A stretch of DNA of 64,000 nucleotides from a virus: positions 32,001 to 96,000 of the IMG/VR virus record IMGVR_UViG_3300045988_162176; one strand, 5' to 3'. A program made the position numbers and the translations under genes. Position 1 is the first letter of the stretch. Every line of letters begins with the position of its first letter. The notes under the pieces are model-generated. The model did not search any database and was not told the origin of the DNA. It saw nothing but the letters and a program-made list of their open reading frames with translations. This document shows, piece after piece, positions 3,495 through 64,000 of this stretch.

Positions 3495-4886
3495 TCAATT
3501 TTTATCCTGATAGTTTTTAATTTTTGTCCATGATTTATTAAACAAATCTTCCCATATAGAATTTTTTTCAGTAAGATTAGAAGAAAGAGAATTAAAATTT
3601 TGAGGAATAAGCTTATCTAAGTTAAGTTGAATAAGGTCTTTATTTAACTTTTCATATAAGAAAGTTTCATAATATTGCGAAAGTTGAAAAGCTTCCTCTT
3701 CTTTTTTGTCAATAAAATAAACAGTTCCATCAGGTTGATTGATAACATTTCTTGAATTTGGTATTTCTTTAGCTTGTCTACTCTTTTTTAATTTAGAAAT
3801 TTTCTTTTGAGTTTCTTTATTATTAGTAGTTAAATTCTTTTTTAATAATACATCATCAATATCAGAAGTTTGTTTATAAAGAGATGCACATACAGCAATA
3901 TGTTCAGTAGAATATCTAATTAAATAAGATGGATAAGCAAACAAAGCACCAAGATTAATGATAAGAGAGTGGGTTAATTTCTTTTGAAATTCTTTTAATA
4001 ACCCTTTTTCTAAAATATCAGAATAACCTTTACAATTATACTCAGCAAAGATTTTACCGCGAATATTAACAAAAGTATTTAATTCATTTGGTTTTAAAGG
4101 TCTTTCTTTGTAGGTAACTAATAAAGGCGATTTATCTTTTAATGGTAAATAAAAATTACCATCTTCTTCATATATAGTTGAATAATCAGCATTAAAAGGA
4201 AGTCTATCTTTTTCTATAAATCCACCAACAAATACATCTTGAGGAAAAATAACTCCATCTTTTTCTAATTTATCAATAATAGTTTCTATTTGATAAAAAT
4301 TTTGTTTAGAAGTATGAGAATCATAATCGTCTAAAAGATTTTGAGTTCTTTTAGTTATATTATGAGCAGTTTCTTTGTTATTTCTTAATTCACGGATTTC
4401 TTTTTTAGGTTGAGTAACAAAAGGATATTTTGAATCTCTTAAATTTAAAGTATATTCTTCTAAGCGTCTACCATAAGAATAAGGAGAAAAATGAAATTGT
4501 TTATAATTTTCATTTTGTAATCCTATTGCAATAGCTAAGTCTCCTTTAGACATACAAAGATTTTCTCTTTTAGTATACTAACCATATACATTAAGAAAAG
4601 CGCAAAAAATCCATATAGCTGTATTTTGATATAATTCTTTTGCAACAGCACGATAATATTCATCAGGAGGAACTATTTTAATACAGGTAAATTTATCCTT
4701 GTTCTTTCTCCAAGTAAAACATTTCTTCCAATTTTCTAATTGTTTTTTCTAAAATTTCTTTTGCGATGGAGAAGAATAATTAGGTTCATCAAGTAGCTTG
4801 CAAAGTTCTTTATAGCTATTGACGGTGGAAACATTAGATAGTTTTTCCTAAACTCTAAGATAAAGGCTCTATTTCTAATCAGCCAT
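3495..4886 (-). CDS. hypothetical protein, TAG-recoded (5 in-frame TAG in the N-terminal 110 codons)
   Basis: ATG at 4886 with RBS AAAGGAGATAATTT; frame runs MAD*K*SLYLRV*EKL... straight into the 352-aa ORF 3495..4553; length is a multiple of 3. Confidence 0.7.
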
Positions 4887-9017: not shown

Positions 9018-9904
9018 GTAGCTGTCCTCAATAATTCAGTACATTCTGCAACAACTCTGTGAGCATTTTCACGCAAAGTTCTATCAAATTCTCCCTCAAT
9101 TTCTTCCCCAATGATTTCAGCGGCAATATTATTAAATCTTGTGTGAGGAATGGTTTCAAAGAAATTTGTTCCTTCTCCACCTCTAGCAAAAGTTAAATCG
9201 GCAGTAACGGGGAGGAGGGGATTATCATTACCAACGGCTGTAACAGGAACAAAAGGGTTATAAATAACTTGGGTGTTTGGTTGAGTGCAATGAATATAAA
9301 TCATGTTATTTATTGGATTGTAAATCATATTGTCTACTGGATATCGACTTACACCCTTCTTTTTTACCAAGATATAATTGCCATAAAATCCCATTAACTC
9401 AGTTAAAATCTTAATAGTTTTTACAGAAATACTTTTATAAATAGGATTAAGATAATTTTTTGGGGCATCAAGCATAAGAAAAAAATCATCTATAATTGAA
9501 ACACAATTTTTTAAAGCCTTGAGATATTTATACATTAGACTATAATTTTTAATGGCGTCATTTTTAACAATGAAATCTGCATTAAAAGAAGTATTCATTT
9601 CAGTATAATAACCAACCCAATTACAAAAACTAGTTATTTTTAATCCATCTTTGTTCTTTTTATAGTCAAAGAAAGGATTATTCATGAAAAATGGAACAGT
9701 TACATCTGGATTTTCAGTTCGAAGCATAGTAATATAAGGAAGTATTGGAAGAGTAGGTTCAAGATAATTAAACAATACCGCAAATTTATCAGGGCAAATC
9801 TTTTCATTGTCAAAGAAAGAATTAAAAGGAATTTCAACAAGAATCTTTAAGAAAGAGACAAATTGTTTTTTAATATCCTCACAAGTAATTGTTTTATTTT
9901 CCAT
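9014..9904 (-). CDS. hypothetical protein
   Basis: 296-aa ORF, 4-nt overlap with the downstream gene. Confidence 0.75.
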   Translation of the reverse strand: MENKTITCEDIKKQFVSFLKILVEIPFNSFFDNEKICPDKFAVLFNYLEPTLPILPYITMLRTENPDVTVPFFMNNPFFDYKKNKDGLKITSFCNWVGYYTEMNTSFNADFIVKNDAIKNYSLMYKYLKALKNCVSIIDDFFLMLDAPKNYLNPIYKSISVKTIKILTELMGFYGNYILVKKKGVSRYPVDNMIYNPINNMIYIHCTQPNTQVIYNPFVPVTAVGNDNPLLPVTADLTFARGGEGTNFFETIPHTRFNNIAAEIIGEEIEGEFDRTLRENAHRVVAECTELLRTAT

Positions 9905-29019: not shown

Positions 29020-29200
29020 AGAAATTGAAATCCTTACGGATAATTCTTACTGCTTCATAATATATGCTTTCACGATTATAAATAATCCGCTATTCGCAGG
29101 TCCTTGTATATTCCACAGTCGTAAATTCCCGAAATAGCCTTCGGTACATACTTATGATTGCTTAATTATACAATTTCATAAGTTAAAGCATCTCTCAAAT
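29020..29200 (-). ncRNA. probable TnpB omega-RNA (reRNA) scaffold
   Basis: By analogy with characterised TnpB loci, the guide RNA overlaps the 3' end of tnpB and the right end; the region is visibly G+C-richer and hairpin-rich (e.g. CCGAAGGCTATTTCGG). Confidence 0.45.
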
Positions 29201-30317
29201 TAAGACTTGCATTGAAATCTCTATCTGCAATATAACCACATGAACAGTAGTATACTCTGTCTGAAAGTTTTAAGTCTTTATTAATATTACCACAACAATG
29301 ACATAATTTAGAAGAGGGATAAAATCTATCTACAATTCTTAATTCAATATCATTTTCGGCACATTTAACTTTTAATTTTGTTCTAAATTCATAAAACTTT
29401 TGTGCGGCAATAGCTTTTGAAAGATACTTATTCTTCATCATACCTGATATATCTAAATTTTCAATAGTTATATAAGATGGCTTGGTTTTTACTATCTCAG
29501 CTATTATTTTATTGATATAATCAGTTCGAATATTAGTTATTTTATGATAAAGTTTTTGTACTTTAAGTTTTTGTTTTTGTATATTTTTTTGAGTGCTGCC
29601 TCCTTTCTTAAAATTTTCATATTTACGAGAAAGACATCGTTGTTCTCTTCGTAATTGTTTTTCTATTTTTTTTATTTCCCTTGATTTGTTGATATTTTTA
29701 TATATTTTACCATTTGAAATAACGGCAAAATCTTTCAAACCCAAATCAATTCCTATACCTTCATTAAAATTGTGCGCAATTTGAATATTTGGCATCTCTA
29801 CTAAAACAGATACAAAATATTTATTTGCTTTAATAGATACTGTGCCGCTCTTAATTTTCAAACCGCTTTTAGATACTGGTATATAACCTTTTTCTTTTAA
29901 ACGAACCCATCCCAAACTTGGAATTTTAATTCTATGTCTTTCACAAAGACAATCGGTTAAATTATTTTTAACAAAATACATTTTTACATCAGATTTTCCT
30001 TTTTTCTTAAATTTAGGATAACCTGATTGATGTTTAAAAAATTTTGTAAAAGCAGCATATCCATCTTCAATAGATTTTTTTACTGCTTTTGAATATACTT
30101 CTTTAATCCATATTTTGTCAGGATTGTTTGGAATATATTCATTATTAAGCCATAAACTAAAACTTTTTCCTGTTACAAATTTTTTATTTCGGTCATATAA
30201 TTCTTTATTATAAGACAAATAAAAATTGTAAATATATCTACAAGTCCCAATTGTTTTATTAATTTGAATCTTTTGTTCTTTTGTTGGATTTATTTCCGTT
30301 TTAAAACTTTTTAACAT
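29166..30317 (-). CDS. tnpB: TnpB (IS200/IS605-family RNA-guided nuclease, OrfB)
   Basis: 383 aa; N-terminal FKTEINPTKEQ; RuvC motifs IGIDLG, ITIENL, ADRDFNASLNL; zinc finger CHCCG...CSCG. Confidence 0.9.
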   Translation of the reverse strand: MLKSFKTEINPTKEQKIQINKTIGTCRYIYNFYLSYNKELYDRNKKFVTGKSFSLWLNNEYIPNNPDKIWIKEVYSKAVKKSIEDGYAAFTKFFKHQSGYPKFKKKGKSDVKMYFVKNNLTDCLCERHRIKIPSLGWVRLKEKGYIPVSKSGLKIKSGTVSIKANKYFVSVLVEMPNIQIAHNFNEGIGIDLGLKDFAVISNGKIYKNINKSREIKKIEKQLRREQRCLSRKYENFKKGGSTQKNIQKQKLKVQKLYHKITNIRTDYINKIIAEIVKTKPSYITIENLDISGMMKNKYLSKAIAAQKFYEFRTKLKVKCAENDIELRIVDRFYPSSKLCHCCGNINKDLKLSDRVYYCSCGYIADRDFNASLNLRDALTYEIV

Positions 30318-38742: not shown

Positions 38743-39327
38743 TTAATTCCCCTTAAAGTAATACTCATAATGTTCTCCATCCCAAAGAGGATGTTTAACC
38801 ATCTTGTCAGTATTCCAATCAGAATATTCACCATTTTCGTTCACATCAGCAACATAACAATTATCATCAGGGTCGCAACCATTATCATTGCCAGTGTAAA
38901 TACAACTTTTTGGGTCAAAAAGAAAACGTTTTAACTTGTCATCGTCTTCAAGAATTTCATTAATGAAGGGAACAAGTTCTCCTGCATGGTCTACAGAACC
39001 GCCATTATCCCAAAATTCCCAACCACCATATTTGCTTGTTTCTCTTTTATAGGTTGGAACGAAAATTTTAATCTTAAAATCTTCTTCAAGTTTACGCTTA
39101 AAATCTTTCGCTTGAGCAAACATATCACAGTTAAGCATGGCAGTGTAAAGATAAGAAGCCTTATCTTCTGTGGAAGAGTAGCAACGTGTGTCCCAACCAT
39201 AATCTTCATCTGCATTAAAATTTAGATAAGCTGGAATATGTTTTGGACCATAATTGTCCTTTGAAATAACAAGAGAATGACAAGAACTTGAATTTGTCTC
39301 AAATACGTTCTTACGAATCTGTTTCAT
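38743..39327 (-). CDS. FETNSSS-motif family protein (copy 1 of 4)
   Basis: Start at MKQIRKNVFETNSSSCHSL; later GGSVDH and GNDNG motifs are shared with the paralogs. Confidence 0.7.
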   Translation of the reverse strand: MKQIRKNVFETNSSSCHSLVISKDNYGPKHIPAYLNFNADEDYGWDTRCYSSTEDKASYLYTAMLNCDMFAQAKDFKRKLEEDFKIKIFVPTYKRETSKYGGWEFWDNGGSVDHAGELVPFINEILEDDDKLKRFLFDPKSCIYTGNDNGCDPDDNCYVADVNENGEYSDWNTDKMVKHPLWDGEHYEYYFKGN

Positions 39328-40276
39328 TATTTGTCTCCTCATTCAAATCTCTCAAGAACTGATACATTTCAGTAACAGTCTTATCGCCAACATCATAACG
39401 ATTATTTACATCACAAGAATTTCTTGCAAACTGCATTTCTACTGCGTCAATGTACATAGAAGCACTGGTCTGTTCACCGTCTTGGCCATCATCGCCCATG
39501 TACATAGTATTCCAGTCTTCCTCAGACATAAGACGCTGAGGTTCGAGCTGTTTAATAGCAAGGTTGTCAAAACTAATAACAGAGAACCACTTCTCGTCAA
39601 TCATATGACCAAGATTGTCATAGATTGCTTTCTGTTTATTCGCTACAAGCTTCTTAGCCCAATCTTCCTTAACATATTCCTCACCACGACGAACAGTCTT
39701 ATAACCAAGAATGAGAATCTTAAGGTTACGATTCTTAAGAGCACGAAGAGTATCCATTGTTACAATACCATTAATGACATGGAGAACAAGATTAGGATAC
39801 TTAGAAATAGTCTTAAGGAACTGTGGCTGAAGAGGGTCAACAAGAGAGACCCCAATGCCATAGATGAACTTCTCATTAACAAGCTGTTCAATAAGCTCTT
39901 GATTCTTCATGAATTCAAACTGATGAACAGTAATATTGGGAATGAGTTTGAGTTCCTTGCACTTGCGGAGAAATGGAATCAAATCAGGGTGAGAAGTTAC
40001 TGCGCCACCGCCAACTGCAATTTCAGTGTATTCGTGAAAACTTTTAAGGAGATTTTGGAACTTTTCTCCCATAATATCGCCGCTTTTACCCTCTAAAGTG
40101 GCATTTTCATGACAAAATTTACAACCAATAGGGCAAAATCTGGTAATGCAAATGTCGGCGCTTTCTGGAAAATCAGCCTTGAAAAAGCTCAAATCATTTT
40201 CACGAGTTTTGGTTCCGTTGTCCAGATTCAGCTCCACTGTATAATTTCCGTTCTGATAGGTAACAATATTATCCAT
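39311..40276 (-). CDS. radical SAM domain protein
   Basis: 321 aa; CPIGCKFC (CxxxCxxC) cluster motif followed by a GGG-containing segment (EIAVGGGAVTSHPD). Confidence 0.7.
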   Translation of the reverse strand: MDNIVTYQNGNYTVELNLDNGTKTRENDLSFFKADFPESADICITRFCPIGCKFCHENATLEGKSGDIMGEKFQNLLKSFHEYTEIAVGGGAVTSHPDLIPFLRKCKELKLIPNITVHQFEFMKNQELIEQLVNEKFIYGIGVSLVDPLQPQFLKTISKYPNLVLHVINGIVTMDTLRALKNRNLKILILGYKTVRRGEEYVKEDWAKKLVANKQKAIYDNLGHMIDEKWFSVISFDNLAIKQLEPQRLMSEEDWNTMYMGDDGQDGEQTSASMYIDAVEMQFARNSCDVNNRYDVGDKTVTEMYQFLRDLNEETNNETDS

Positions 40277-42045: not shown

Positions 42046-42489
42046 TTAGTTATAACCATAAGCACAAGTAATAACAAGCTTGTCACCACTTGGAGATGTA
42101 TAATGAGAAATTTCTGTATGAAGTCCATCACTACTACAATCCTGCATAAACTCTTGATAAGTTAAACCAGACCCTTCATAGTCGAAAAGAGAATTCTTTT
42201 CTTGTCTGCGTTGCTGTGCAATATGATTGTAAGTGTATTCTTCTCTTTCTGCGTCTGTAAGTTCAGACCAGTCTTTGTAATATTTGCCTTTACCGATGTT
42301 ATAAGCTTCTTCTGCTTCTTTTCTATCTTGCTTGGTAATTTTAATGGTATTCTTAACAAAAGTTTCATGCCATTTATTAAAAAGCAATTTACCATCTTTC
42401 CAGTCTTTGTACTCATCTTCAGTACAAATGGCAAGTGTATGAGTAGAAGAAGAATTTGTTTCAAATACATTTTTACGAATTTGCTTCAT
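42046..42489 (-). CDS. FETNSSS-motif family protein (copy 2, short)
   Basis: MKQIRKNVFETNSSSTHTL... Confidence 0.7.
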   Translation of the reverse strand: MKQIRKNVFETNSSSTHTLAICTEDEYKDWKDGKLLFNKWHETFVKNTIKITKQDRKEAEEAYNIGKGKYYKDWSELTDAEREEYTYNHIAQQRRQEKNSLFDYEGSGLTYQEFMQDCSSDGLHTEISHYTSPSGDKLVITCAYGYN

Positions 42490-42922
42490 TTAATTTTACC
42501 TCTTCTAAAATTTTAGATTCTACCAGTTTGTTCATTTTATTTTCATATTTCTTAATAATCATATCAAGAAAAGAAAAACTGTGTCCACTATCTTGAGCTC
42601 TGAAAAAAGCATTATATGGCTGACCAAAATCATCATCAATAACTTCAAGATTATCAAAATCATTCCAAGATTTAAGGTCATCAAGGTCAATTGCTACATC
42701 AAAGCTAAATTCATACGAAATTCTTTCTATTTTGGAGTTGAAAAGACAAAAATGATAAGTCATCCAATAATGGTCAGACTTTTTAGATTCTCTCCAAAAC
42801 CCCTCTTTAAACCCTGCATCAGTAAGAAGAATAATTTGTTCTGCTGTAGTTAAAGAAAGAAAATAGTCAGATAATTCATAACGCTTCATTTTGCGTTTAG
42901 TCTTCATGTTTGGAGTCTGCAT
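42473..42922 (-). CDS. hypothetical protein (start uncertain)
   Basis: 149-aa ORF overlapping the end of 42897..43529; internal Met codons are possible starts. Confidence 0.6.
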   Translation of the reverse strand: MQTPNMKTKRKMKRYELSDYFLSLTTAEQIILLTDAGFKEGFWRESKKSDHYWMTYHFCLFNSKIERISYEFSFDVAIDLDDLKSWNDFDNLEVIDDDFGQPYNAFFRAQDSGHSFSFLDMIIKKYENKMNKLVESKILEEVKLNEANS

Positions 42923-43529
42923 CTTCTTTCTCCTTTTCCAATTGAGCTAAATATTGCTTGTGCCATTCTTCTTCCTCTTCAGCATAACTATCATGGATGA
43001 TTTTGGAAGTGTCTACCAAACCAGAATCCTTAATATGAGGCCAGCAATTGTACTCATCGCCATCCACAACTACAATATATCTCTTATTAGTTAAAAATTC
43101 CTCAAGAGATACATTATACTTCTTAAGCCACCCCTCAATCTGATAATCGTCAGTGCCGCCATAGGTTGGAACAGGCACATTTGCTACTACATAATCTTTA
43201 ACTTCTGAATCCCAAACATAATCTTTGGTATCGAATTCAAAATCTGTAAATCCATCAATATACTTTTTACAAATTTCTCTGCATTCATCTACAAGATTAC
43301 CATTAGACGATGCAATAGCATATCTCAGCTTATCCTTAAAAGTTACAAGCATATCAAAAGGAGAACGATAAAATTCAAGAGAAGATTCCCACAATCTTAC
43401 GATACCATCAGTCATATAAAAATTTTTATTAATTTCTTCTCTAGTATAATGCTCATTATCAGTAGTAATTACCAAAGAATGACTTGAGCTACTATTAGTT
43501 TCAAAAACATTACATCTAATCTGTTTCAT
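42897..43529 (-). CDS. FETNSSS-motif family protein (copy 3)
   Basis: MKQIRCNVFETNSSSSHSL... Confidence 0.7.
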   Translation of the reverse strand: MKQIRCNVFETNSSSSHSLVITTDNEHYTREEINKNFYMTDGIVRLWESSLEFYRSPFDMLVTFKDKLRYAIASSNGNLVDECREICKKYIDGFTDFEFDTKDYVWDSEVKDYVVANVPVPTYGGTDDYQIEGWLKKYNVSLEEFLTNKRYIVVVDGDEYNCWPHIKDSGLVDTSKIIHDSYAEEEEEWHKQYLAQLEKEKEDADSKHED

Positions 43530-44777: not shown

Positions 44778-45326
44778 TTAGTGATTGTCATTGTCGATAA
44801 ACAAACTATAACACTTATTAAAAATATAATCTTCTAATGTAATTCCATCTCTTGCAAAAATATAATACATTCCATCAGAAACATAATAATCAAGACTTTG
44901 ATGGTCTACATAACCATCTTCATCAGGACTAATTTCAATTCCTATAATGTGAATATCATGCTTAGAAAGAGCGTGCTTTACATCATCTTCAAATTTTTGG
45001 AAATCATCAGATTCCATAACTTCTTTAATAGCTTCTTCTTTATCTTCTCTACTGCTCCAATTAATATTATAACCTTGGAAACAAGTTATAGCAGTTAAGA
45101 TATATTCAAGTTTAGCTATTGCGCTATTTTCATCTAAATCAGAGTCCCAACCCCATCCAAAGGTTTCAAAATTTAATTTTAAATATTTACCGTAACCATT
45201 GTGACCATAATCCTCTTCAATGTAATCATCTAACTGAGTATAATCATAATTATCTTTACTACTAATACTCAATGAATGAACACTTGAAGAATTAGTCTCA
45301 AAAACATTTTTTCTAATTTGTTTCAT
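44778..45326 (-). CDS. FETNSSS-motif family protein (copy 4)
   Basis: MKQIRKNVFETNSSSVHSL...DGYVDHQS...IDNDNH. Confidence 0.7.
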   Translation of the reverse strand: MKQIRKNVFETNSSSVHSLSISSKDNYDYTQLDDYIEEDYGHNGYGKYLKLNFETFGWGWDSDLDENSAIAKLEYILTAITCFQGYNINWSSREDKEEAIKEVMESDDFQKFEDDVKHALSKHDIHIIGIEISPDEDGYVDHQSLDYYVSDGMYYIFARDGITLEDYIFNKCYSLFIDNDNH

Positions 45327-49678: not shown

Positions 49679-49749
49679 AGCGGCGACTTCGAATCGAACG
49701 AGCATTTCACGGGTTAGAGCCGTGCGCATTGACCATTATACTACGCCGC
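49679..49749 (-). tRNA. suppressor tRNA, anticodon CTA (reads UAG)
   Basis: GCGGCGT AG TATAATGGTCAATGCG C ACGGC(CACGG) CTCTAAC CCGTG...TCGCCGC; perfect 5-bp anticodon stem, loop CT-CTA-AC; the T stem pairs only 3 bp; no encoded CCA. Confidence 0.7.
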
Positions 49750-49860: not shown

Positions 49861-49937
49861 AAAGCTAGACTCATTTTTCAAAACATTTGTAATCCCAAAT
49901 CACAAGTCTCTAAATAATTGCTGTAAGAGTCTACTTT
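49861..49937 (-). ncRNA. E-element 1 (simple)
   Basis: AAAG TAGACTC TTACAGCAA ..45 nt.. GAGTCTA G CTTT; ends 9 nt before tRNA-Arg(TCT). Confidence 0.6.
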
Positions 49938-49954: not shown

Positions 49955-50090
49955 TGGTGGGAATGGAGTGACTCGAACACTCAATTTCCCGATTTGGTGT
50001 TTTAGACAAGTCTTGCACTTGCATTTGAAGTTTTACTTTTAAACTACTAAAACATAAGTCGGGCCCTCTGACCAATTGAGATACATCCCC
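49955..50090 (-). tRNA. tRNA-Ile(TAT)-like interrupted by a 59-nt insertion in the anticodon loop
   Basis: GGGGATG..CCCGA CTTAT[59 nt]AA TCGGG AAATT GAGTG TTCGAGT CACTC CATTCCC A CCA; all four stems pair. Confidence 0.7.
49995..50053 (-). ncRNA. tRNA-shaped insertion (I-type element I1) inside the tRNA-Ile anticodon loop
   Basis: GTTTTAG TA GTTT AAAAGTA AAAC ... CAAGT GCAAG ACTTG . CTAAAAC ACCA: 7-bp acceptor-like helix, D-like and T-like hairpins, 3' ACCA. Confidence 0.6.
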
Positions 50091-50100
50091 ATATAAAATC

Positions 50101-50192
50101 CTAGACACCATATAAAAATCTAAAAAAGTATTTATTCCAATTAAATATATTTCCCAGTATTTTTATTTTAATTGCTGTAAGTGTCTACTTTT
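50101..50192 (-). ncRNA. E-element 2 (simple)
   Basis: AAAAG TAGACAC TTACAGCAA ... GTGTCTA G; ends 10 nt before the interrupted tRNA-Ile. Confidence 0.6.
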
Positions 50193-50204
50193 AACATTAC
50201 TAAT

Positions 50205-50274
50205 CTAAACCCTATCCATAATCTTTTTTTCAAGCAAAAATTAAGTAGTTAAATTGCTGTAAGGGTTTACTTTT
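50205..50274 (-). ncRNA. E-element 3 (simple)
   Basis: AAAAG TAAACCC TTACAGCAA ... GGGTTTA G; directly upstream of E2. Confidence 0.6.
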
Positions 50275-50326
50275 AAATCATCAATAACTTACCATCTTGT
50301 TTGTAGTACTCCAAACAATTCAATCT

Positions 50327-50392
50327 TGCACCGTGGGGGATTCGAACCCCTCTTAAGCCCTCCGTCGAGCGACCCCAACCTTGGTACGGCAC
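50327..50392 (-). ncRNA. tRNA-like element (acceptor stem + T arm, non-canonical body)
   Basis: GTGCCGT...AGGGG TTCGAAT CCCCC ACGGTGC A; only about 66 nt; no convincing D or anticodon arms. Confidence 0.4.
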
Positions 50393-50399
50393 TTATAAA

Positions 50400-50540
50400 C
50401 TAGACGCATAATACTAACAAAGGAGAATCATGAAAGCATCATAAACTAATTAGCAAGGAACAATACCCAAAATCTTTTTTTAAATATTAGAATTTTTTTA
50501 TAGAATTTGATTTTTATTATTGTTTGCTGTAAGCGTCTAC
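50400..50540 (-). ncRNA. E-element 4 (long AT-rich interior)
   Basis: G TAGACGC TTACAGCAA ..110 nt.. GCGTCTA G. Confidence 0.55.
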
Positions 50541-50565: not shown

Positions 50566-50646
50566 TGGCAGGGATGGAAGGATTCGAACCTTCGAAAAAA
50601 ACTCATAGAGTCAAAGTCTACTGCCTTACCGCTTGGCTACACCCCT
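50566..50646 (-). tRNA. tRNA-Gln(TTG)-like with a type-II-style D arm and an 11-nt unstructured variable region
   Basis: AGGGGTG TA GCC AAGCGGTAA GGC A GTAGA CTTTGAC TCTAT GAGTTTTTTTC GAAGG TTCGAAT CCTTC CATCCCT G CCA. Confidence 0.65.
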
Positions 50647-51317: not shown

Positions 51318-51833
51318 TTATCCACGAGTACGTTTCCAATAATTTGCCATTTTATATTCAGGCTTATTAGTAACTTCCTCGATAAACACTTCAGGAAAAG
51401 GCCAAACATAACTATTAGCTTCTTCCTCAGAATCAAATTCAACTTCGGCATAATAGAAGGCATTATCAGTTCCGCCATCTACAAGATTGAATTCAATTAA
51501 ATAACCATTATTGTAAAGACCTCTATAATCTTTTACAATAGGATTATAACCAAGTTCATTAAAACAGTCAAACAAAGAATTATCTGTAAGATTTGTTTCA
51601 ATTTCAGTACGAGTTAAAGTACCACCAGACTTGAAAGTAAGAGCATCTGGACGATAACCTTTGCCACTTTCAAACCAACGTCTTATACGAATTTCCTGTG
51701 AAATTTTTCCATCAGAATTATATTTGATATTAATATAAATAGTTTTAACAATTCCGACTTCATCAAAATCGACTTTAGGAAAACCAGAGATTAAAAACTT
51801 ACGTTCGATTTCGATTGAATTATTATTACTCAT
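51318..51833 (-). CDS. CYTH-domain (triphosphate tunnel metalloenzyme) protein
   Basis: 171 aa; N-terminal EIERKFL (ExExK signature), later acidic/basic beta-strand pattern (EIRIRR, YAEVEF). Confidence 0.75.
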   Translation of the reverse strand: MSNNNSIEIERKFLISGFPKVDFDEVGIVKTIYINIKYNSDGKISQEIRIRRWFESGKGYRPDALTFKSGGTLTRTEIETNLTDNSLFDCFNELGYNPIVKDYRGLYNNGYLIEFNLVDGGTDNAFYYAEVEFDSEEEANSYVWPFPEVFIEEVTNKPEYKMANYWKRTRG

Positions 51834-51852
51834 TTTTAATCTCCTTTTTCCA

Positions 51853-51947
51853 TGGCACTAGCGGTAAGATTCGAACTCACGAGACGGATACAAGCCGTCA
51901 CACATCATTTCAAGTGATGGCAGTTATGACCACTTCTGTACGCTAGC
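51853..51947 (-). tRNA. tRNA-Ser(TGA)
   Basis: 95 nt, long variable arm, loop CTTGAAA, encoded CCA. Confidence 0.85.
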
Positions 51948-53074: not shown

Positions 53075-53087
53075 ATAATAATTAATA

Positions 53088-53209
53088 CTAGACACGTTTT
53101 TTTTGATATCGGTCATCCAGACATCCCCCGAAGGAGACGGAAGAATCGAACTTCCCCGTTTAATTTTCCATATTAAAGAATCAAGTAATTTTGCTGTGCG
53201 TGTCTACTT
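53088..53209 (-). ncRNA. E-element 5 with a closed-acceptor tRNA-like domain
   Basis: AAG TAGACACG CACAGCAA ... GGAAG TTCGATT CTTCC GTCTCC TTCG GGGGAT ... CGTGTCTA G; ends 12 nt before tRNA-Leu(CAA). Confidence 0.6.
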
Positions 53210-53260
53210 GAAAGGAATTTATATTTGCCTATTAGAAAAATAGGAGCGTCAATCTATTAA

Positions 53261-53392
53261 CTAGACTCATTTTACAAAATCTGTTGCTCTACCAGTTGAG
53301 CTAACTCCCGATGGTCGGGAGCAGAGGATTCGAACCTCCAACACACAGGCCCATAGCATTTGTGATTGTAAAGTTGCTGTTAGAGTCTACTT
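53261..53392 (-). ncRNA. E-element 6 enclosing the permuted tRNA-Gln
   Basis: AAG TAGACTC TAACAGCAA C TTTACAA ... [permuted tRNA] ... TTGTAAA AT GAGTCTA G. Confidence 0.6.
53273..53349 (-). tRNA. circularly permuted tRNA-Gln(TTG)-like module (3' half, CCA, T, 5' half) inside E-element 6
   Basis: CCTGT GTGTT GGAGG TTCGAAT CCTCT GCTCCCG A CCA T CGGGAGT TA GCTC AACTGGTA GAGC A ACAGA TTTTGTA; the acceptor halves are mutually complementary. Confidence 0.6.
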
Positions 53393-53466: not shown

Positions 53467-53495
53467 ACTATAACATAAAATTTTCATTTTGTCAA
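53467..53495 (-). promoter_or_regulatory. promoter of the E6-E5-tRNA-Leu-L2-tRNA-Cys unit
   Basis: TTGACA-17-TATAGT. Confidence 0.65.
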
Positions 53496-53603: not shown

Positions 53604-53633
53604 ATTTAATTATTTTCCTTTTTTAGAAAGGGG

Positions 53634-53698
53634 CTAGACGCTTTTTGTGTATTCTTATTTAACAGATAAGTACATTTAAATTGCTGTAAGCGTCTACT
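53634..53698 (-). ncRNA. E-element 7 (simple, with an anticodon-arm-like hairpin)
   Basis: AG TAGACGC TTACAGCAA ... CTTAT CTGTTAA ATAAG ... GCGTCTA G. Confidence 0.55.
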
Positions 53699-53808: not shown

Positions 53809-53815
53809 ATAAATA

Positions 53816-53951
53816 CTAGAGACATTGTTGTTATGGACTCCTGCCTTAAACCACTTGGCTACATACTTCAACTGAAGACGTTCGGATTCGAACCGAAGAA
53901 TGGGAGTTTGGCTTCTAACATACTTTCAGAATTGCTGTTAGTCTCTACTTT
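53816..53951 (-). ncRNA. E-element 8 with a closed-acceptor tRNA-like domain
   Basis: AAAG TAGAGAC TAACAGCAA ... ACTCC CATTC TTCGG TTCGAAT CCGAA CGTCTTC AGTT GAAG.. GCC AAGTGGTTTAA GGC A GGAGT ... GTCTCTA G. Confidence 0.6.
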
Positions 53952-54195: not shown

Positions 54196-54203
54196 ATATT
54201 AAC

Positions 54204-54324
54204 CTAGACTCTTTTGCGTATTATTCACCACAGAGCGCCCTCTGACGAGAATCGAACTCGCTAATGATTGTTTTGCAGACAATTGTGTTAACCTTTTTAA
54301 GAATTTGCTGTAAGAGTCTACTTT
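54204..54324 (-). ncRNA. E-element 9 with a closed-acceptor tRNA-like domain
   Basis: AAAG TAGACTC TTACAGCAA ... GCGAG TTCGATT CTCGT CAGAG GGCG CTCTG TGG... GAGTCTA G; ends 8 nt before tRNA-Glu. Confidence 0.6.
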
Positions 54325-56597: not shown

Positions 56598-56609
56598 ATA
56601 ATGAGCAAT

Positions 56610-56737
56610 CTTGACACTTTTTTCTAGCCAACCACGGTTAACCATTCCTTGCTCAAGGGATACGTTAATAAGGAGTCGAACCTTACACGACGTTATTCCA
56701 AAAACATAAAATAAATTTGCTGTGAGTGTCAACTTTT
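56610..56737 (-). ncRNA. E-element 10 with a tRNA-like domain
   Basis: AAAAG TTGACAC TCACAGCAA ... TAAGG TTCGACT CCTTA TTAAC..CCTT GAGC AAGG..GTTAA ... GTGTCAA G; ends 12 nt before tRNA-Ser(GCT). Confidence 0.55.
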
Positions 56738-57497: not shown

Positions 57498-57631
57498 TGG
57501 AGCAAGATACGAGATTCGAACTCGCCCTTACGGTTTTGGTCCTTTAAGTAAGACTTGAACTTACATCAATGGTTTTTCATTAAACTATTAAAGGGGAAGA
57601 CCGTCGTGCTAACCACTAACACTAATCCTGC
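57498..57631 (-). tRNA. tRNA-Gly(TCC)-like interrupted by a 58-nt insertion in the anticodon loop
   Basis: GCAGGAT TA GTGT TAGTGGTTA GCAC G ACGGT CTTCC[58 nt]AA ACCGT AAGG GCGAG TTCGAAT CTCGT ATCTTGC T CCA. Confidence 0.7.
57537..57594 (-). ncRNA. tRNA-shaped insertion (I-type element I2) inside the tRNA-Gly anticodon loop
   Basis: CCTTTAA TA GTTT AATGA AAAC CATTGAT GTAAG TTCAAGT CTTAC TTAAAGG ACCA; homologous to I1 with a covarying 7-bp helix. Confidence 0.6.
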
Positions 57632-58254: not shown

Positions 58255-58728
58255 TTACTTTTTCACCGAAGTCACGCCATTAAAATCATACAAACGTACA
58301 ATATGGCTTAGTCCTAAAGTGTCAGAAATATCAGCACTAATGATAGACCAATCTCCACCAGCAAGACCACACCCAATCATATAAGGCATAGCAATCTCTT
58401 CTCCAATAGGAATCATTTCACGAATCTTAAGAAGACATTCATGAAAATATTCATAGTTGGTGTTTACATTTGGTCCACCAATGCCAATCTGAGAAAACAT
58501 ATTAAGAAAAACTTTATCTTTGTTTTCCTCAATTCGAAGAACTTTACCATAAAGCTCTTCAGGAGTATGATAACTACAAAACTTATTATACTCCAAATAA
58601 ACATGAGGATAATTCTTCTTAATTTGAAGAGCAACACCAGCGCCCATTACACCAAAGGTATTAGCCTGATGACAAATATACTTTGCCGAAGTCTTAAGGA
58701 CATCGCCTTGAATAATAGACACTGACAT
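58255..58728 (-). CDS. macro-domain protein (ADP-ribose binding/hydrolase fold)
   Basis: 157 aa; IIQGDVL...YICHQANTFGVMGAGVALQIKKNYP...IGCGLAGGDW. Confidence 0.75.
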   Translation of the reverse strand: MSVSIIQGDVLKTSAKYICHQANTFGVMGAGVALQIKKNYPHVYLEYNKFCSYHTPEELYGKVLRIEENKDKVFLNMFSQIGIGGPNVNTNYEYFHECLLKIREMIPIGEEIAMPYMIGCGLAGGDWSIISADISDTLGLSHIVRLYDFNGVTSVKK

Positions 58729-62004: not shown

Positions 62005-62304
62005 CTAAAATTCTGACTTTTTCAATGTAGGAGTAATATCTAAATTAGAATTTGCACTTGTACGAGTATAAGTAGAACCAGCCCAATCTGACCCCCAGAT
62101 GTCAGCCTTGGTAGTAACATACTTCTTATATTTGCAAGAAAGTTTTACAGAAAGACACTCAGGATAATCTTTAATACTTTTTTTGAGCTCATTAAAAGAT
62201 TCTTCTGCTTTGACCACATCCTCTGTGTATTTACAAATTGCTTCGTTTTCACATCCTGAACAAACACTTGGAATATATTCTCGACCTGTATTAAGTACCA
62301 TCAT
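62005..62304 (-). CDS. hypothetical Cys-containing protein
   Basis: 99-aa ORF; ends at TAG (read-through adds 2 codons). Confidence 0.65.
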   Translation of the reverse strand: MMVLNTGREYIPSVCSGCENEAICKYTEDVVKAEESFNELKKSIKDYPECLSVKLSCKYKKYVTTKADIWGSDWAGSTYTRTSANSNLDITPTLKKSEF

Positions 62305-62818
62305 TGTTTTCTTCTCCTTCCTTATAATATTCTTGTAAAATCAAATTATAACATAGCGTATTAGGATGATAATATGGATTATCATAAATCTGACTATCAT
62401 CCCCAGTAAAACATTTCATAATACCAGCACAAACACCAGAAGAACGACTAATGCCAGCATTACAATGAACAATAATTACATCAACCTTATCCCACCACTT
62501 ATTGACAAAATCAATAACTTTTTTAGCATCTTCTTTTGTCATCAGTTGATAAATACGAGACTCATAAACAAAACCATCTGAATTAGTATAGTTTTCTACA
62601 ATTAGACCTTCATCCTTCTTCCAGTACTGCATACCCTTATAGGGCTGAATATCATCAAAGAAAAGAGATAATTGAGCCTTAATATTATTAAATTTATTAG
62701 GAAGTTGACGCACGCCAATCTCGATAGAATCATTAATGCTAATTACAACAGAATTCTCTTCATGAGAACCATAGCTATATTTAACACAATCTCTACGACT
62801 CATAACCTTAAACTGCAT
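62291..62818 (-). CDS. Cys-based (PTP/dual-specificity-like) phosphatase
   Basis: 175 aa; active-site signature VHCNAGISRS (HCx5R[ST]). Confidence 0.75.
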   Translation of the reverse strand: MQFKVMSRRDCVKYSYGSHEENSVVISINDSIEIGVRQLPNKFNNIKAQLSLFFDDIQPYKGMQYWKKDEGLIVENYTNSDGFVYESRIYQLMTKEDAKKVIDFVNKWWDKVDVIIVHCNAGISRSSGVCAGIMKCFTGDDSQIYDNPYYHPNTLCYNLILQEYYKEGEENNDGT

Positions 62819-63275: not shown

Positions 63276-64000
63276 TTAAACAGACTCATTGGTAAATACC
63301 TTCTGACTAATAAAGTCTTTACCTTCTTCACTTGTTAAAATTGGCATTTCATAATCAAGAATCCACTTATAACGAATAGCCTCCTGACCATCTTTGCCAA
63401 TAACAGTAGTAGGAACACGATATGCACAAGTACCACGTTTCTCTACTGTTGTATAATCGTTCCAGTTTACACCCTTTTCAGTAAACATCTTATCCTGTAA
63501 TTTGGTAGTATTAATACCATGAAGTTCTTTTTGAGAATACAAAGATTGAGCAACTGCCTGAATAGAATTTCGAGTACAATCCTGCTGTCTCCAAACAAAA
63601 TAATTATGCACTTCAAAGGCAGGGACAACAAATACTCTACTATCAAAGGTGGGCATTTCTTTTCCCTTACGAACCATTTTCCAATCGTAAGAATCTTGAT
63701 TCATATTAAAGATATCTAAGGTTGTATCAATAATAGTATTCTCGGCAAAATAATTATTAAACCAAAGAGTACAAAGAGCCGCAGATGTACTAACAATTTT
63801 TTGAATATTATTGTCAAACCATGGCTGAGAATTTCTTTCGCTCTGAATCATGACAAGAGAAATTTCATCTGACTCAACATAACCAAACTTAACATTTGGA
63901 ATAATTTCACAGAGCTTAAGCATAGTCTGTTGCATGGTTTTAACAAAAATAGGGTCAAAAGGTTTCTTCATACCACGGCAGAATGAATGAAAATGAGCTC
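63276..64000 (-). CDS. Thg1-like protein (tRNA-His guanylyltransferase family 3'-5' nucleotidyltransferase), N-terminus beyond the window
   Basis: GYVESDEISLV, FDSRVFVVP..EVHNYFVWRQQDCTRNS match Thg1/TLP motifs; the frame stays open upstream of the listed Met to position 64000 (..AHFHSFCRGMKKPFDP). Confidence 0.8.
   Translation of the reverse strand, partial: AHFHSFCRGMKKPFDPIFVKTMQQTMLKLCEIIPNVKFGYVESDEISLVMIQSERNSQPWFDNNIQKIVSTSAALCTLWFNNYFAENTIIDTTLDIFNMNQDSYDWKMVRKGKEMPTFDSRVFVVPAFEVHNYFVWRQQDCTRNSIQAVAQSLYSQKELHGINTTKLQDKMFTEKGVNWNDYTTVEKRGTCAYRVPTTVIGKDGQEAIRYKWILDYEMPILTSEEGKDFISQKVFTNESV

What the first reader, a model, noticed from the sequence alone, without database searches (positions are those of the whole stretch)
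53261..53392. Circularly permuted tRNA-Gln(UUG) gene nested in E-element 6
Reading the minus strand, a complete tRNA 3' half (anticodon-stem 3' strand CCTGT, variable loop, GGAGG-TTCGAAT-CCTCT, acceptor GCTCCCG, A, CCA) is followed after one T by the matching 5' half (CGGGAGT TA GCTC AACTGGTA GAGC A ACAGA TTTTGTA). The acceptor strands pair 7/7 (one G-U), so this is one tRNA whose ends are joined and which is opened in the anticodon loop.

The open ends are held together by the E-element stem. A second helix does the same: the anticodon nucleotides UUGUAAA pair with UUUACAA in the 5' flank, and that flank contains the Gln codon CAA.

Permuted tRNA genes are known from a few algae and archaea, where they are matured through a circular intermediate. 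I know of no bacterial or phage example.

There are two readings. It could be a real tRNA matured by ligation plus RNase P cleavage. Or it could be a tRNA-Gln mimic, for example a decoy or a Y-RNA-type tRNA-like domain. This is relevant because the phage appears to reassign UAG to Gln.
Basis: seen in the sequence. Interest (0 to 1): 0.85.

Follow-up and report, generated by a model that had tools for sequence, protein, structure and literature searches.

The report
Phage tRNA-shaped Y-RNA-like element
The sequence really is a tRNA with its two halves swapped, but it is most likely not a decoding tRNA: it looks like a tRNA-mimicking "Y RNA" that partners a divergent Ro60-like protein encoded by the same gut phage.

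Summary
On the minus strand, 53391-53260 reads: closing stem, ACAGCAA bulge, anticodon-stem 3' strand, variable loop, T arm, 7-bp acceptor closed by the loop ACCAU, D arm, anticodon-stem 5' strand, closing stem.

The Gln identity and the "real permuted tRNA" reading are not supported. Position 37 would be U, no bulge-helix-bulge motif is present, a normal tRNA-Gln(UUG) sits in the same array, and the body is not Gln-like.

The only non-tRNA Rfam match is YrlA (Y RNA-like), at 39.8 bits against a gathering score of 69. Its topology is the same and is already known in bacteria and mycobacteriophages.

The "E-element" is a widespread RNA motif: a covarying 5'/3' stem plus ACAGCAA. It is tied to a DUF2828+vWA protein, encoded here at 36030-37748. 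The best structural matches of that protein's predicted model are Ro60. An E-element lies in this gene's 5' UTR in about 60 of 80 phage loci.

A covariance model finds 14 distinct permuted tRNA-like E-elements in several phage lineages. In that set 33 of 35 base pairs show compensatory changes.

Best reading: a YrlA-type Y RNA for a phage Ro60-like protein. Protein binding and RNase P cleavage are inferred, not shown. It is a new variant of a known kind.

The parts
53260..53391 (-). Whole element: an E-element enclosing a circularly permuted tRNA-like module
   Evidence: Sequence. Covariance model R1 self-hit of 161 bits at 53260-53391. YrlA hit at 53268-53366.
53467..53495 (-). Sigma-70-type promoter-like site (TTGACA-17-TATAGT with TG), about 75 nt upstream of the element
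   Evidence: 11 of 12 matches. Member of repeat family D3. No minus-strand terminator between 54500 and 52800, so the element is probably co-transcribed with the next E-element and tRNA-Leu. This is inferred.
53383..53389 (-). E-stem 5' strand UAGACUC
   Evidence: Pairs 7/7 with 53262-53268. The three inner positions covary among the 11 E-elements of the window.
53374..53380 (-). Conserved single-stranded ACAGCAA motif, the hallmark of the E-element
53366..53372 (-).
   Evidence: Complementary 7/7 to 53271-53277. Not in the minimum-free-energy fold. Weakly conserved in the family.
53345..53349 (-). Anticodon-stem-like 3' strand CCUGU
   Evidence: 4 pairs plus an A-C mismatch with 53280-53284. 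The helix is 91% paired, with compensatory changes, in the family.
53323..53339 (-). T arm GGAGG-UUCGAAU-CCUCU
   Evidence: 100% paired in the family, and all 5 pairs show compensatory changes.
53316..53322 (-). Acceptor 3' strand GCUCCCG
   Evidence: 7/7 pairs with 53304-53310. The helix is 96% paired, and all 7 pairs covary in the family.
53311..53315 (-). Closing loop A-CCA-U (discriminator, CCA, one U)
   Evidence: Invariant in 8 homologues. N-CCA-U... loops also occur in L142 and L092/L098 members.
53304..53310 (-). Acceptor 5' strand CGGGAGU
53286..53301 (-). D arm GCUC-AACUGGUA-GAGC, preceded by U8 A9
53280..53284 (-). Anticodon-stem-like 5' strand ACAGA
53271..53277 (-).
53261..53268 (-). 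E-stem 3' strand GAGUCUA plus the conserved unpaired G
53815..53949 (-). Second E-element with a complete permuted tRNA-like module (closing loop AGUU, no CCA), 7 nt upstream of tRNA-Lys
   Evidence: R1 hit of 42.5 bits. The L038 homologue shows compensatory changes in the T stem and acceptor.
53087..53208 (-). E-element with a T arm, a UUCG-closed acceptor-like hairpin and a D-like hairpin, 13 nt upstream of tRNA-Leu(CAA)
   Evidence: T stem and acceptor hairpin fully covary between the window and its relatives..
54203..54322 (-). E-element with a T arm and a closed hairpin, 8 nt upstream of tRNA-Glu
56609..56734 (-). E-element (GUUGAC variant) with a T arm, 12 nt upstream of tRNA-Ser(GCU)
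53633..53698 (-). Simple E-element without a T arm, upstream of tRNA-Tyr
50400..50540 (-). E-element with a 115-nt AU-rich insert, 7 nt upstream of an atypical tRNA-like sequence
50205..50270 (-). Simple E-element (GUAAAC variant)
50100..50189 (-). Simple E-element, 10 nt upstream of the 133-nt tRNA at 49958-50090
49864..49935 (-). Simple E-element, 9 nt upstream of tRNA-Arg(UCU)
37771..37832 (-). E-element in the 5' UTR of the Ro60-like gene, between the promoter-like site 37879-37851 and the ATG at 37748
   Evidence: Conserved in all relatives with at least 90% identity. Analogous elements occur in about 60 of 80 DUF2828 loci.
36030..37748 (-). Gene for a 572-aa DUF2828 + DUF7788/vWA protein with a Ro60-like predicted fold: the proposed protein partner
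   Evidence: Pfam. PHROG 850 'RNA-binding protein'. AlphaFold2 model. Foldseek against PDB: the top 7 hits are all Ro60. BFVD hit to a Ro-like protein of Gordonia phage VanLee.

Best explanation
The element is a non-coding, tRNA-shaped RNA module. It is not a decoding tRNA.

Its T arm, D arm and 7-bp acceptor stem form a normal tRNA elbow. The acceptor end is closed by the loop A-CCA-U. The anticodon side is open and runs into a 5'/3' closing stem that carries a conserved single-stranded ACAGCAA. This stem plus motif is the 'E-element'.

This is the architecture of YrlA-type bacterial Y RNAs. The most likely mechanism has three steps.
1. The element is transcribed from the promoter-like site at 53495-53467 as part of a tRNA-array transcript.
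2. The E-stem/ACAGCAA module is the binding site for the phage's own Ro60-like protein (DUF2828+vWA, 36030-37748). That protein's mRNA carries the same module in its 5' UTR.
3. The tRNA-like domain acts as a tRNA mimic that engages tRNA-recognising factors. A 7-bp acceptor followed by ACCA-U makes RNase P cleavage in the loop plausible. Trimming one nucleotide would then leave a CCA end, as happens in M. smegmatis YrlA.

Shown here: the structure and its covariation, family membership across phage lineages, and the genomic linkage of E-elements to DUF2828 genes. The Ro60-like fold is a prediction from a model.

Inferred: protein binding, RNase P cleavage, and any downstream role such as RNA quality control, recruitment of an exonuclease, or acting as a decoy.
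For: - Structure.
- Closest family: YrlA is the only non-tRNA Rfam match. It covers the full model, at 39.8 bits, E = 1e-7 to 6e-6. Other family members give YrlA hits of 34-43 bits.
- Wider RNA family: a covariance model built on the element finds full-length relatives in distant phage contigs L098, L142, L007, L092 and L001, and at window 53815-53949.
- Covariation: on 14 distinct sequences, 92% of cells are paired, against 61.5% in shuffles and at most 44.5% when partners are slid. 33 of 35 pairs have compensatory changes.
- Not tRNA junctions: these hits lie between annotated tRNAs, not across two of them.
- Protein partner: the gene at 36030-37748 is DUF2828+vWA. The top 7 PDB fold matches of its model are all Ro60, over 550-590 columns, with E about 1e-6. 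A phage 'Ro-like RNA binding protein' is also hit.
- E-element in the gene's 5' UTR: seen in the window, in all close relatives and in about 60 of 80 loci at 45-97% amino-acid identity.
- ACAGCAA strand bias: 417 copies on the gene strand against 119 on the other in 1.6 Mb of viral DUF2828 loci, and 265 against 64 in genome loci.
- Stem closure: 42% of gene-strand copies are closed by a 7-bp stem, against 8-16% for control 7-mers.
- Reciprocal test: contigs found only through the RNA motif encode DUF2828 homologues.
- Local order in L098: tRNA, then permuted tRNA-like E-element, then simple E-element, then the DUF2828 gene.
- Literature precedent: YrlA mimics tRNA, and M. smegmatis YrlA is cut by RNase P and gains CCA (PMC4201824). 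The Ro60 of Thermus phage phiLo binds two Y-like RNAs encoded upstream of its gene, each a 5'-3' stem with a bulge carrying CGAA (PMC12135203).
Against: - There is no direct evidence of binding or processing.
- The Ro60 likeness rests on a medium-confidence model (pLDDT 68, TM about 0.4). Sequence and profile searches do not see it, and the Pfam TROVE family is not hit.
- The YrlA score is well below Rfam's gathering score (39.8 against 69).
- The canonical Ro-binding motif GNCGAAN0-1G is replaced by ACAGCAA.
- In this window the protein gene lies 15.5 kb from the element.
- 8 of 11 E-elements in the window sit 7-30 nt upstream of tRNAs, and 14% do so across all loci. They could therefore be processing signals independent of the protein.
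- Direct homologues of the element are 97% identical and carry no compensatory changes on their own.
- The family alignment was fitted to the model's structure, which biases the pair counts towards it.
Confidence: 0.6

Rival explanations
1. It is a genuine circularly permuted tRNA-Gln(UUG) gene. The transcript would be cut at both ends, ligated in the anticodon loop (possibly through a circle), and opened at the CCA-U-C junction by RNase P to give a decoding tRNA.
For: All tRNA parts are present, and ARAGORN calls tRNA-Gln(ttg) after a hand-made join. CCA is encoded next to a 7-bp acceptor. The phage carries a CUA suppressor tRNA and some in-frame TAG codons.
Against: - The join point is arbitrary. 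Position 37 would be U, whereas tRNAs almost always have a purine there (established tRNA knowledge).
- The stem has 4 pairs plus an A-C mismatch.
- The 'anticodon' lies in a segment that can pair into a helix, and no bulge-helix-bulge motif is visible.
- Family members have no conserved 7-nt loop at this place.
- A canonical tRNA-Gln(UUG) is in the same array.
- The body is not Gln-like. The nearest phage tRNAs are Phe, Asn, Val and Thr, and tRNAs starting CGGG are mostly Pro.
- No RNA ligase was found among about 30 window ORFs scanned.
Confidence: 0.03
2. It is a processing or insulating module of the polycistronic tRNA transcript. The E-stem and the tRNA-like fold would give RNase P, RNase III or exonucleases defined entry and stop points, so that neighbouring tRNAs mature correctly. 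No role for the Ro60-like protein is needed.
For: 8 of 11 E-elements in the window lie 7-30 nt upstream of a tRNA. Across loci, 40 of 292 lie within 40 nt upstream of a tRNA, against 2 of 292 random points. Promoter-like sites are present and no terminators separate the elements from the tRNAs.
Against: - It does not explain the tight, reciprocal linkage to DUF2828 genes, nor the E-element in that gene's 5' UTR.
- Most E-elements are not next to a tRNA.
- Element 53391-53260 is itself followed by another E-element, not by a tRNA.
Confidence: 0.17
3. It is a tRNA decoy. The mimic would soak up a host factor that attacks or modifies the tRNA acceptor end or elbow, such as defence nucleases or nucleotidyl- or acetyl-transferase toxins. 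It would act with or without the Ro60-like protein.
For: The tRNA elbow and acceptor-CCA features are intact while there is no anticodon loop. Several tRNA-like E-elements occur per genome. The window also encodes other tRNA-related functions, including Thg1-like, macro-domain and phosphatase proteins.
Against: This is purely inferential. No target is identified. It largely overlaps the best explanation and does not exclude it.
Confidence: 0.1
4. It is non-functional debris: the remnant of a tandem tRNA duplication that lost its outer halves and happens to lie inside a repeat.
For: N-CCA followed by a U-rich spacer is what a junction between two tandem tRNA genes looks like. In L170, tandem non-permuted E-bearing tRNA-like genes mimic the arrangement across their junction.
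Against: Compensatory changes are seen in every arm across distant phages. The tertiary-interaction nucleotides U8, A14, G18G19, the T loop and an R15:Y48 pair are kept. The element is conserved in position and sequence in at least 8 relatives. It is always enclosed by an E-stem.
Confidence: 0.05

Closest known systems
YrlA (Y RNA-like, Rfam RF02553) of bacteria and mycobacteriophages, especially M. smegmatis YrlA
   Same: - tRNA-like domain with a T arm, a D arm and an acceptor-like stem closed by a loop.
- The molecule is open on the anticodon side, where the 5' and 3' ends pair into a stem with a conserved bulge.
- Full-length covariance-model match.
[quoted passage not shown]
- A gene for a Ro60-type protein in the same genome.
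   Different: - The score is below Rfam's threshold (39.8 against 69).
- The YrlA middle stem is missing.
- The conserved bulge is ACAGCAA rather than GNCGAAN0-1G.
- CCA is already encoded in the closing loop.
- The presumed protein partner is a DUF2828 protein, recognisable as Ro60-like only by predicted fold.
- There are 11 related elements per 64 kb, most of them acting as leaders of tRNA genes.
- Homologous RNAs also exist in the non-permuted order.
Yrl1/Yrl2 Y-like RNAs of Thermus phage phiLo, with phage Ro60 (PMC12135203)
   Same: Phage-encoded. The elements lie immediately upstream of the Ro60-type gene, as in L098 and as the 37832 element does here. Each is a 5'-3' stem flanking a bulge that holds a short conserved motif.
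   Different: The phiLo protein is a recognisable Ro60, and its motif is CGAA. That paper describes stem-bulge-stem RNAs. A tRNA-like domain and a tRNA-array context were not among the passages I read.
Circularly permuted tRNA genes of Cyanidioschyzon merolae and some other algae and archaea
   Same: In the gene, the 3' half precedes the 5' half, and the acceptor ends are joined by a short spacer.
   Different: Those genes are processed through a bulge-helix-bulge motif and a circular intermediate into real decoding tRNAs, and do not encode CCA. Here there is no such motif and no conserved anticodon loop, CCA is encoded, and a normal isoacceptor is present.
Small stable tRNA-like RNAs of phage tRNA clusters, for example T4 species 1 and 2 RNAs (from memory)
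   Same: Non-tRNA stable RNAs encoded inside a phage tRNA array and co-processed with the tRNAs.
   Different: No known link to a Ro60-type protein and no permuted tRNA topology. The comparison rests on recollection only.

Membership tests
YrlA / bacterial Y RNA-like (RF02553) | tRNA-like domain: T arm, D arm and an acceptor-like stem closed by a loop, open on the anticodon side | tested here: met
YrlA / bacterial Y RNA-like (RF02553) | Covariance-model score at or above Rfam's gathering score (69 bits) | tested here: not met
   39.8 bits. Relatives score 34-43 bits.
YrlA / bacterial Y RNA-like (RF02553) | Ro60-binding module: a 5'/3' stem with the conserved GNCGAAN0-1G motif on the 5' strand (PMC4201824) | tested here: not met
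   A 5'/3' stem is present, but the conserved motif is ACAGCAA. Only a partial resemblance, CACAAAUGCU against GGCGAAUGCU, appears in the inner loop.
YrlA / bacterial Y RNA-like (RF02553) | Encoded next to a Ro60 (TROVE) orthologue | tested here: inconclusive
   No Pfam TROVE hit. A DUF2828+vWA protein with a Ro60-like predicted fold is encoded 15.5 kb away. In L098/L092 a permuted tRNA-like E-element lies directly upstream of the gene.
YrlA / bacterial Y RNA-like (RF02553) | Bound by the Ro60 protein in vivo | not testable with these tools
   Needs immunoprecipitation or gel-shift assays.
YrlA, M. smegmatis subtype | 7-bp acceptor stem, RNase P cleavage in the closing loop, CCA 3' end | tested here: inconclusive
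   The 7-bp acceptor and the ACCA-U loop are present. Cleavage itself cannot be tested here.
Circularly permuted tRNA genes (algal/archaeal type) | 3' half upstream of the 5' half, with joined acceptor ends | tested here: met
Circularly permuted tRNA genes (algal/archaeal type) | Transcript ends form a bulge-helix-bulge motif for the splicing endonuclease | tested here: not met
   By inspection. The 3' cut would fall inside a 7-bp complementary segment and the 5' cut inside a 16-nt loop. There are no 3-nt bulges flanking a 4-bp helix.
Circularly permuted tRNA genes (algal/archaeal type) | Rejoining gives a canonical anticodon arm: a 5-bp stem and a 7-nt loop with U33 and a purine at 37 | tested here: not met
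   The stem is 4 bp plus an A-C mismatch, and position 37 is U. No conserved loop exists in the family.
Circularly permuted tRNA genes (algal/archaeal type) | A circular or ligated intermediate and a mature tRNA are detectable | not testable with these tools
   Needs RNA-seq or RT-PCR.
tRNA-Gln | Body and acceptor resemble glutamine tRNAs | tested here: not met
   No Gln tRNA among the 25 nearest of 573 phage tRNAs. tRNAs starting CGGG are mostly Pro. Only 57 of 76 positions match the phage's own tRNA-Gln, with gaps.
E-element (DUF2828-associated RNA motif, defined here) | 5'/3' closing stem of 7-9 bp with covarying positions, followed on the 5' side by N1-2-ACAGCAA; variable insert; unpaired G after the 3' strand | tested here: met
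E-element (DUF2828-associated RNA motif, defined here) | Occurs on the coding strand near a DUF2828 gene | tested here: met
   Same strand and same genome, with a copy in the gene's 5' UTR.

The most novel reading that the evidence does not exclude
E-elements and DUF2828 proteins together form a large, so far undescribed Ro60/Y-RNA-type ribonucleoprotein system of gut phages. Protein relatives also occur in giant viruses and plants.

In this system the Y-like RNAs are built into tRNA-array transcripts, and the same tRNA-like RNA exists in two circular permutations. In one the acceptor is closed and the E-stem is open, as here. In the other the E-stem is closed and the acceptor is open, as in the 'long tRNAs' of other phages.

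In the permuted form, RNase P would cut the encoded N-CCA-U loop and release a two-piece tRNA mimic with a genuine CCA end. That end could be charged, or could be recognised by tRNA-directed enzymes or defence factors.
Probability: 0.35. Interest if true: 0.8.

Novelty: new variant of a known kind. Interest (0 to 1): 0.62.

Why it matters
DUF2828 is a large family of unknown function. More than 5,000 relatives were scored here, including phage and giant-virus proteins. The family name also appears in plant papers.

A cognate, easily recognised RNA motif would make that function directly testable. So would a concrete hypothesis: a Ro60-like ring that binds a stem-bulge RNA.

For Ro/Y-RNA biology the finding would add three things. 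It would add a second protein clade with its own RNA signature. It would show that tRNA mimicry by Y RNAs recurs in phages. It would offer natural circular permutations that separate the roles of the two modules.

For phage biology it suggests that large tRNA arrays carry built-in RNA-protein machinery for tRNA handling.

It does not support a new route of tRNA biogenesis, or a link to UAG-to-Gln recoding.

Tried and rejected
1. GenBank phage search with 1.5 kb around the element. Only generic tRNA matches came back and no related genome.
2. Sequence and profile searches of the DUF2828 protein against PDB sequences. Nothing meaningful was found, and only the fold comparison shows Ro60.
3. Literature search for DUF2828. 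Only incidental mentions in plant and tardigrade papers. Searches for permuted tRNA plus bacteriophage, and for TROVE/phage/Y RNA, found no description of this system.
4. My idea that UUGUAAA belongs to a conserved E-module helix (UUUAC/GUAAA). Rejected: only about 8% of 138 E-elements have these words, and helix lengths between insert ends barely exceed a shuffled control.
5. HDV-like, 'theta' or other self-cleaving ribozyme reading of the E-element. An HDV-like fold would need a partner for ACAGCAA downstream of the closing stem, and none is seen in the sequences. No ribozyme family appears in the Rfam scan at E up to 5.
6. Terminal inverted repeats of a mobile DNA element. Rejected because the stems covary rather than being conserved, and because ACAGCAA is strongly strand-biased.
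7. Junction of two adjacent ordinary tRNAs. Rejected because no tRNA is called on either side of the halves, and family hits lie between annotated tRNAs, not across them.
8. Cluster look-up for source names of the protein. No names were given.
9. The cow-rumen-4 Rfam hit in L007 is an unrelated hairpin.
Full report
**1. Observation**

The window from about 49.6 to 61.7 kb is a minus-strand tRNA array. It holds 17 ARAGORN tRNAs, including a CUA suppressor, and Rfam adds two more.

The order is:
- a 7-nt stem strand, UAGACUC;
- the motif ACAGCAA;
- UUUACAA and a 16-nt loop;
- CCUGU, a 5-nt variable loop, and a canonical T arm;
- acceptor 3' strand GCUCCCG, then A-CCA-U, then acceptor 5' strand CGGGAGU (7/7 pairs, one G-U);
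- U8 A9 and a canonical D arm with GG;
- ACAGA, UU, UUGUAAA, AU, and the stem strand GAGUCUA.

Rejoined by hand, it is called a 76-nt tRNA by ARAGORN. RNAfold gives -42.2 kcal/mol, z = -3.0, and recovers the outer stem, T arm, acceptor and D arm.

**2. The repeat it sits in**

The motif GUAGAC-NNN-N-ACAGCAA occurs 11 times on the minus strand. Ten copies are in the tRNA array and one is at 37832.

Each copy is closed 36-115 nt downstream by N'N'N'-GUCUAG, and NNN covaries with N'N'N'. The 5' motif alone was used for the search, so the matching 3' strands are an unbiased test.

Eight copies end 7-30 nt before a tRNA. Five inserts contain a T arm followed by a closed acceptor-like hairpin. Two of these, 53391-53260 and 53949-53815, are complete permuted tRNA-like modules.

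Promoter-like sites of the TTGACA-17-TATAGT type precede groups of elements. One lies at 53495-53467, and there is no minus-strand terminator nearby.

**3. Known RNA families**

At Rfam gathering thresholds only tRNAs and one RAGATH-18 are found. With E-value thresholds, the sole non-tRNA match over the element is YrlA (Y RNA-like). It matches the full model at 39.8 bits against a gathering score of 69, with E = 6e-6 to 1e-7. The match is carried by the T arm, closed acceptor, D arm and an AAUGCU stretch. The YrlA middle stem is absent.

YrlA RNAs are known tRNA mimics with exactly this topology. They occur in bacteria and mycobacteriophages. M. smegmatis YrlA has a 7-bp acceptor, is cut by RNase P in vitro, and acquires CCA in vivo (PMC4201824). 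The statement that no bacterial or phage example exists is therefore wrong.

**4. The protein partner**

The 37832 E-element lies between a promoter-like site (37879-37851) and the ATG of a 572-aa gene at 36030-37748.
- Pfam assigns the protein DUF2828 plus DUF7788/vWA, with a DGSGSM metal-ion-dependent adhesion (MIDAS) motif.
- PHROGs calls the family 'RNA-binding protein'.
- Sequence and profile searches against PDB see nothing.
- An AlphaFold2 model from 39 homologues has pLDDT 68.
- Its seven best PDB matches are all Ro60 from Xenopus and human, aligned over 550-590 columns with E about 1e-6 and TM about 0.4. Isolated vWA domains follow.
- In the viral structure library it matches DUF2828 proteins of phages and giant viruses, and a 'Ro-like RNA binding protein' of a Gordonia phage.

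I conclude that the protein is a divergent Ro60-like ring-plus-vWA protein. This is a structural inference of moderate strength.

**5. Linkage of E-elements to DUF2828 genes**

- In 80 viral loci encoding relatives at 45-97% identity, all close relatives keep the 5'-UTR element. About 60 of the 80 have an analogous stem-ACAGCAA element just upstream of the gene.
- ACAGCAA occurs 417 times on the gene strand and 119 times on the other, where about 100 are expected.
- 42% of gene-strand copies are closed by a 7-bp stem within 130 nt, against 8-16% for control words.
- The stems differ widely in sequence (AAGACAC/GUGUCUU, AGGCACU/AGUGCCU, AAGCUCU/AGAGCUU, GGGACGC/GCGUCCC). The generic consensus is A-AGRCNNN-N1-2-ACAGCAA-UUU...N'N'N'GYCUU-G.
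- Reciprocal test: contigs picked up only through the RNA pattern (L098, L092, L031, L010/L111, L048, L043) encode DUF2828 homologues of 32-47% identity.
- In L098 the order is tRNA, permuted tRNA-like E-element, simple E-element, DUF2828 gene. This mirrors rsr-yrlA loci and Thermus phage phiLo, whose Ro60 binds two Y-like RNAs encoded upstream of its gene (PMC12135203).
- The same linkage holds in genome assemblies of gut Clostridia and others: 265 against 64 copies, and 112 closed elements in 0.52 Mb.
- The closest relative there is a 123-kb contig binned with an uncultured Clostridium. This fits the sigma-70-type promoters.

**6. The permuted tRNA-like family**

Direct homologues of the element are 97% identical. 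They keep every pair (97.5% of cells) but show no double changes.

A covariance model built on them finds full-length matches in distant phages: L098 (67, 56 and 41 bits), L142 (67, 63, 41 and 38), L007 (53 and 46), L092, L001, and window 53949-53815 (42.5). All lie between annotated tRNAs.

On 14 distinct sequences:
- 92% of cells pair, against 61.5% in shuffles and at most 44.5% with slid partners;
- 33 of 35 pairs have compensatory changes;
- the T arm, acceptor, D arm, anticodon-like stem and E-stem are each 91-100% paired;

The alignment is fitted to the model, which favours the structure. The arms are also plain in the raw sequences.

Closing loops are ACCAU, GCCAUUUUU, GCCAUUGU, CCCAUAAUG and UCCAUAU in five members. 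In others they are degenerate: GCAUU, ACAUA, CCUAU, AGUU.

**7. A related form in normal order**

In other DUF2828 phages, Rfam reports 'long tRNAs' of 114-150 nt. By inspection, these carry the E-module as a closed hairpin between the D arm and the T arm. An example from L151 reads: D arm-GC-GUAAAA-UA-ACGUGUCUU-GGGA-AAGACGU-AA-ACAGCAA-UUUUAC-...-T arm-acceptor.

The window's element is the circular permutation of that design. Here the E-stem is open and the acceptor is closed. I did not model this form formally.

**8. Why it is not a working tRNA-Gln**

- The UUG becomes an anticodon only after an arbitrary join.
- Position 37 would be U, and the stem has an A-C mismatch.
- No bulge-helix-bulge motif exists at the ends.
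- Family members have no conserved loop at that place.
- A normal tRNA-Gln(UUG) lies at 50566-50646.
- The body is nearest to Phe, Asn, Val and Thr tRNAs, and its CGGG...A73 acceptor is Pro-like if anything.
- No ligase was found among about 30 ORFs of the window.
- The CAA in the flank is simply the complement of UUG.

**9. Mechanism, with its limits**

Shown:
- a conserved, covarying, tRNA-shaped RNA module enclosed by an E-element;
- E-elements genomically coupled to a protein whose predicted fold is Ro60-like.

Inferred:
- the E-stem/ACAGCAA bulge binds that protein, and in the gene's own 5' UTR may allow autoregulation;
- the tRNA-like domain engages tRNA-recognising factors;
- the 7-bp acceptor plus ACCA-U loop is cut by RNase P between U53311 and C53310, and trimmed to CCA, as in M. 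smegmatis YrlA.

The element's further role is open. It could be RNA quality control of the phage's tRNAs, tethering of an exonuclease, or action as a decoy.

Rivals: a protein-independent processing module (0.17), a decoy (0.10, overlapping the best explanation), debris of a tandem duplication (0.05), and a true permuted tRNA (0.03).

**10. Verdict**

The element is real and structured, and it is a member of a phage RNA family. It works like a YrlA-type Y RNA, but it fails two membership criteria of that Rfam family: the score threshold and the GNCGAA motif.

It is best filed as a new variant of a known kind. The E-element/DUF2828 pairing is the part that appears undescribed in the literature I could search.

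Noticed in passing
window 29047-29119 (-) and 29166-30317 (-): An Rfam RAGATH-18 RNA (59.9 bits) lies directly downstream of a TnpB/IS605 OrfB-type gene with HTH_OrfB, OrfB_IS605 and Cas12f1-like TNB domains. The position is where a TnpB guide (omega) RNA would be expected.
   Followed up: no
window 49958-50090 (-): A 133-nt tRNA is seen by Rfam (51.8 bits) but not by ARAGORN. It has an intact anticodon stem CCCGA/UCGGG around a roughly 59-nt insertion at the canonical 37/38 position, and would read as tRNA-Ile(UAU). The insertion is far too short for a group I intron. It contains an E-like hairpin AAGAC-UU-GUCU followed by ACACCAA.
   Followed up: partly
window 57540-57594 (-): A 55-nt tRNA-like sequence (Rfam tRNA, 41.6 bits) has an acceptor stem CCUUUAA/UUAAAGG and a T arm but no anticodon arm.
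   Followed up: no
window ~50324-50395 (-): An atypical tRNA-like sequence lies 7 nt after E-element 50540-50400. It has a 7-bp acceptor GUGCCGU/ACGGUGC and a T arm GGGGG-UUCGAAU-CCCCC, but a non-standard interior. It is conserved in relatives and is called by neither ARAGORN nor Rfam.
   Followed up: no
window 50566-50646 (-): The phage's canonical tRNA-Gln(UUG) is 81 nt long, with an unusually long U-rich variable region (GAGUUUUUUUCG).
   Followed up: no
window 49679-49749 (-); ORFs 3495-4886 (-) and 37868-38338 (-): There is a suppressor tRNA with anticodon CUA. Only a few ORFs carry in-frame TAG codons (5 each in these two), which suggests partial or late-gene TAG recoding.
   Followed up: partly
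window 38743-39342, 42046-42489, 42897-43529, 44778-45326 (-): A family of paralogous proteins shares the N-terminus MKQIRKNVFETNSSS-HSL. One representative gave no Pfam hit.
   Followed up: no
window 63276-63971, 62291-62818, 58255-58728, 51318-51908 (-): Several tRNA/RNA-end-related genes are interleaved with the tRNA array: a Thg1-like 3'-5' polymerase, a dual-specificity-phosphatase-like protein and a macro-domain protein. A further ORF begins IEIERKFLI, which looks CYTH-like (my impression only). It has a PHROG hit of unknown function and no Pfam hit.
   Followed up: partly
L151 ~9600-9760, L144 9511-9778, L170 4649-4890, L163 9409-9649, L198 9236-9672, L155 5825-6094: 'Long tRNAs' of 114-150 nt in distant DUF2828 phages carry the E-module (stem-GNRA loop-stem-ACAGCAA) as a closed hairpin between the D arm and the T arm. 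This is the non-permuted counterpart of the window's element. Some E-elements (L155 6248 and 8291) enclose a whole tRNA in normal order.
   Followed up: partly
L001 9640-9726 and 11175-11291: Permuted tRNA-like modules (T arm, closed 7-bp acceptor, D arm) are enclosed by a long stem without any ACAGCAA motif. The permuted tRNA-like design therefore also exists outside the E-element family.
   Followed up: no
L007 189-254: An Rfam cow-rumen-4 RNA (67.7 bits, above its gathering score) lies in a phage contig that also carries permuted tRNA-like E-elements. It is a hairpin upstream of a gene and unrelated to the E-element.
   Followed up: partly
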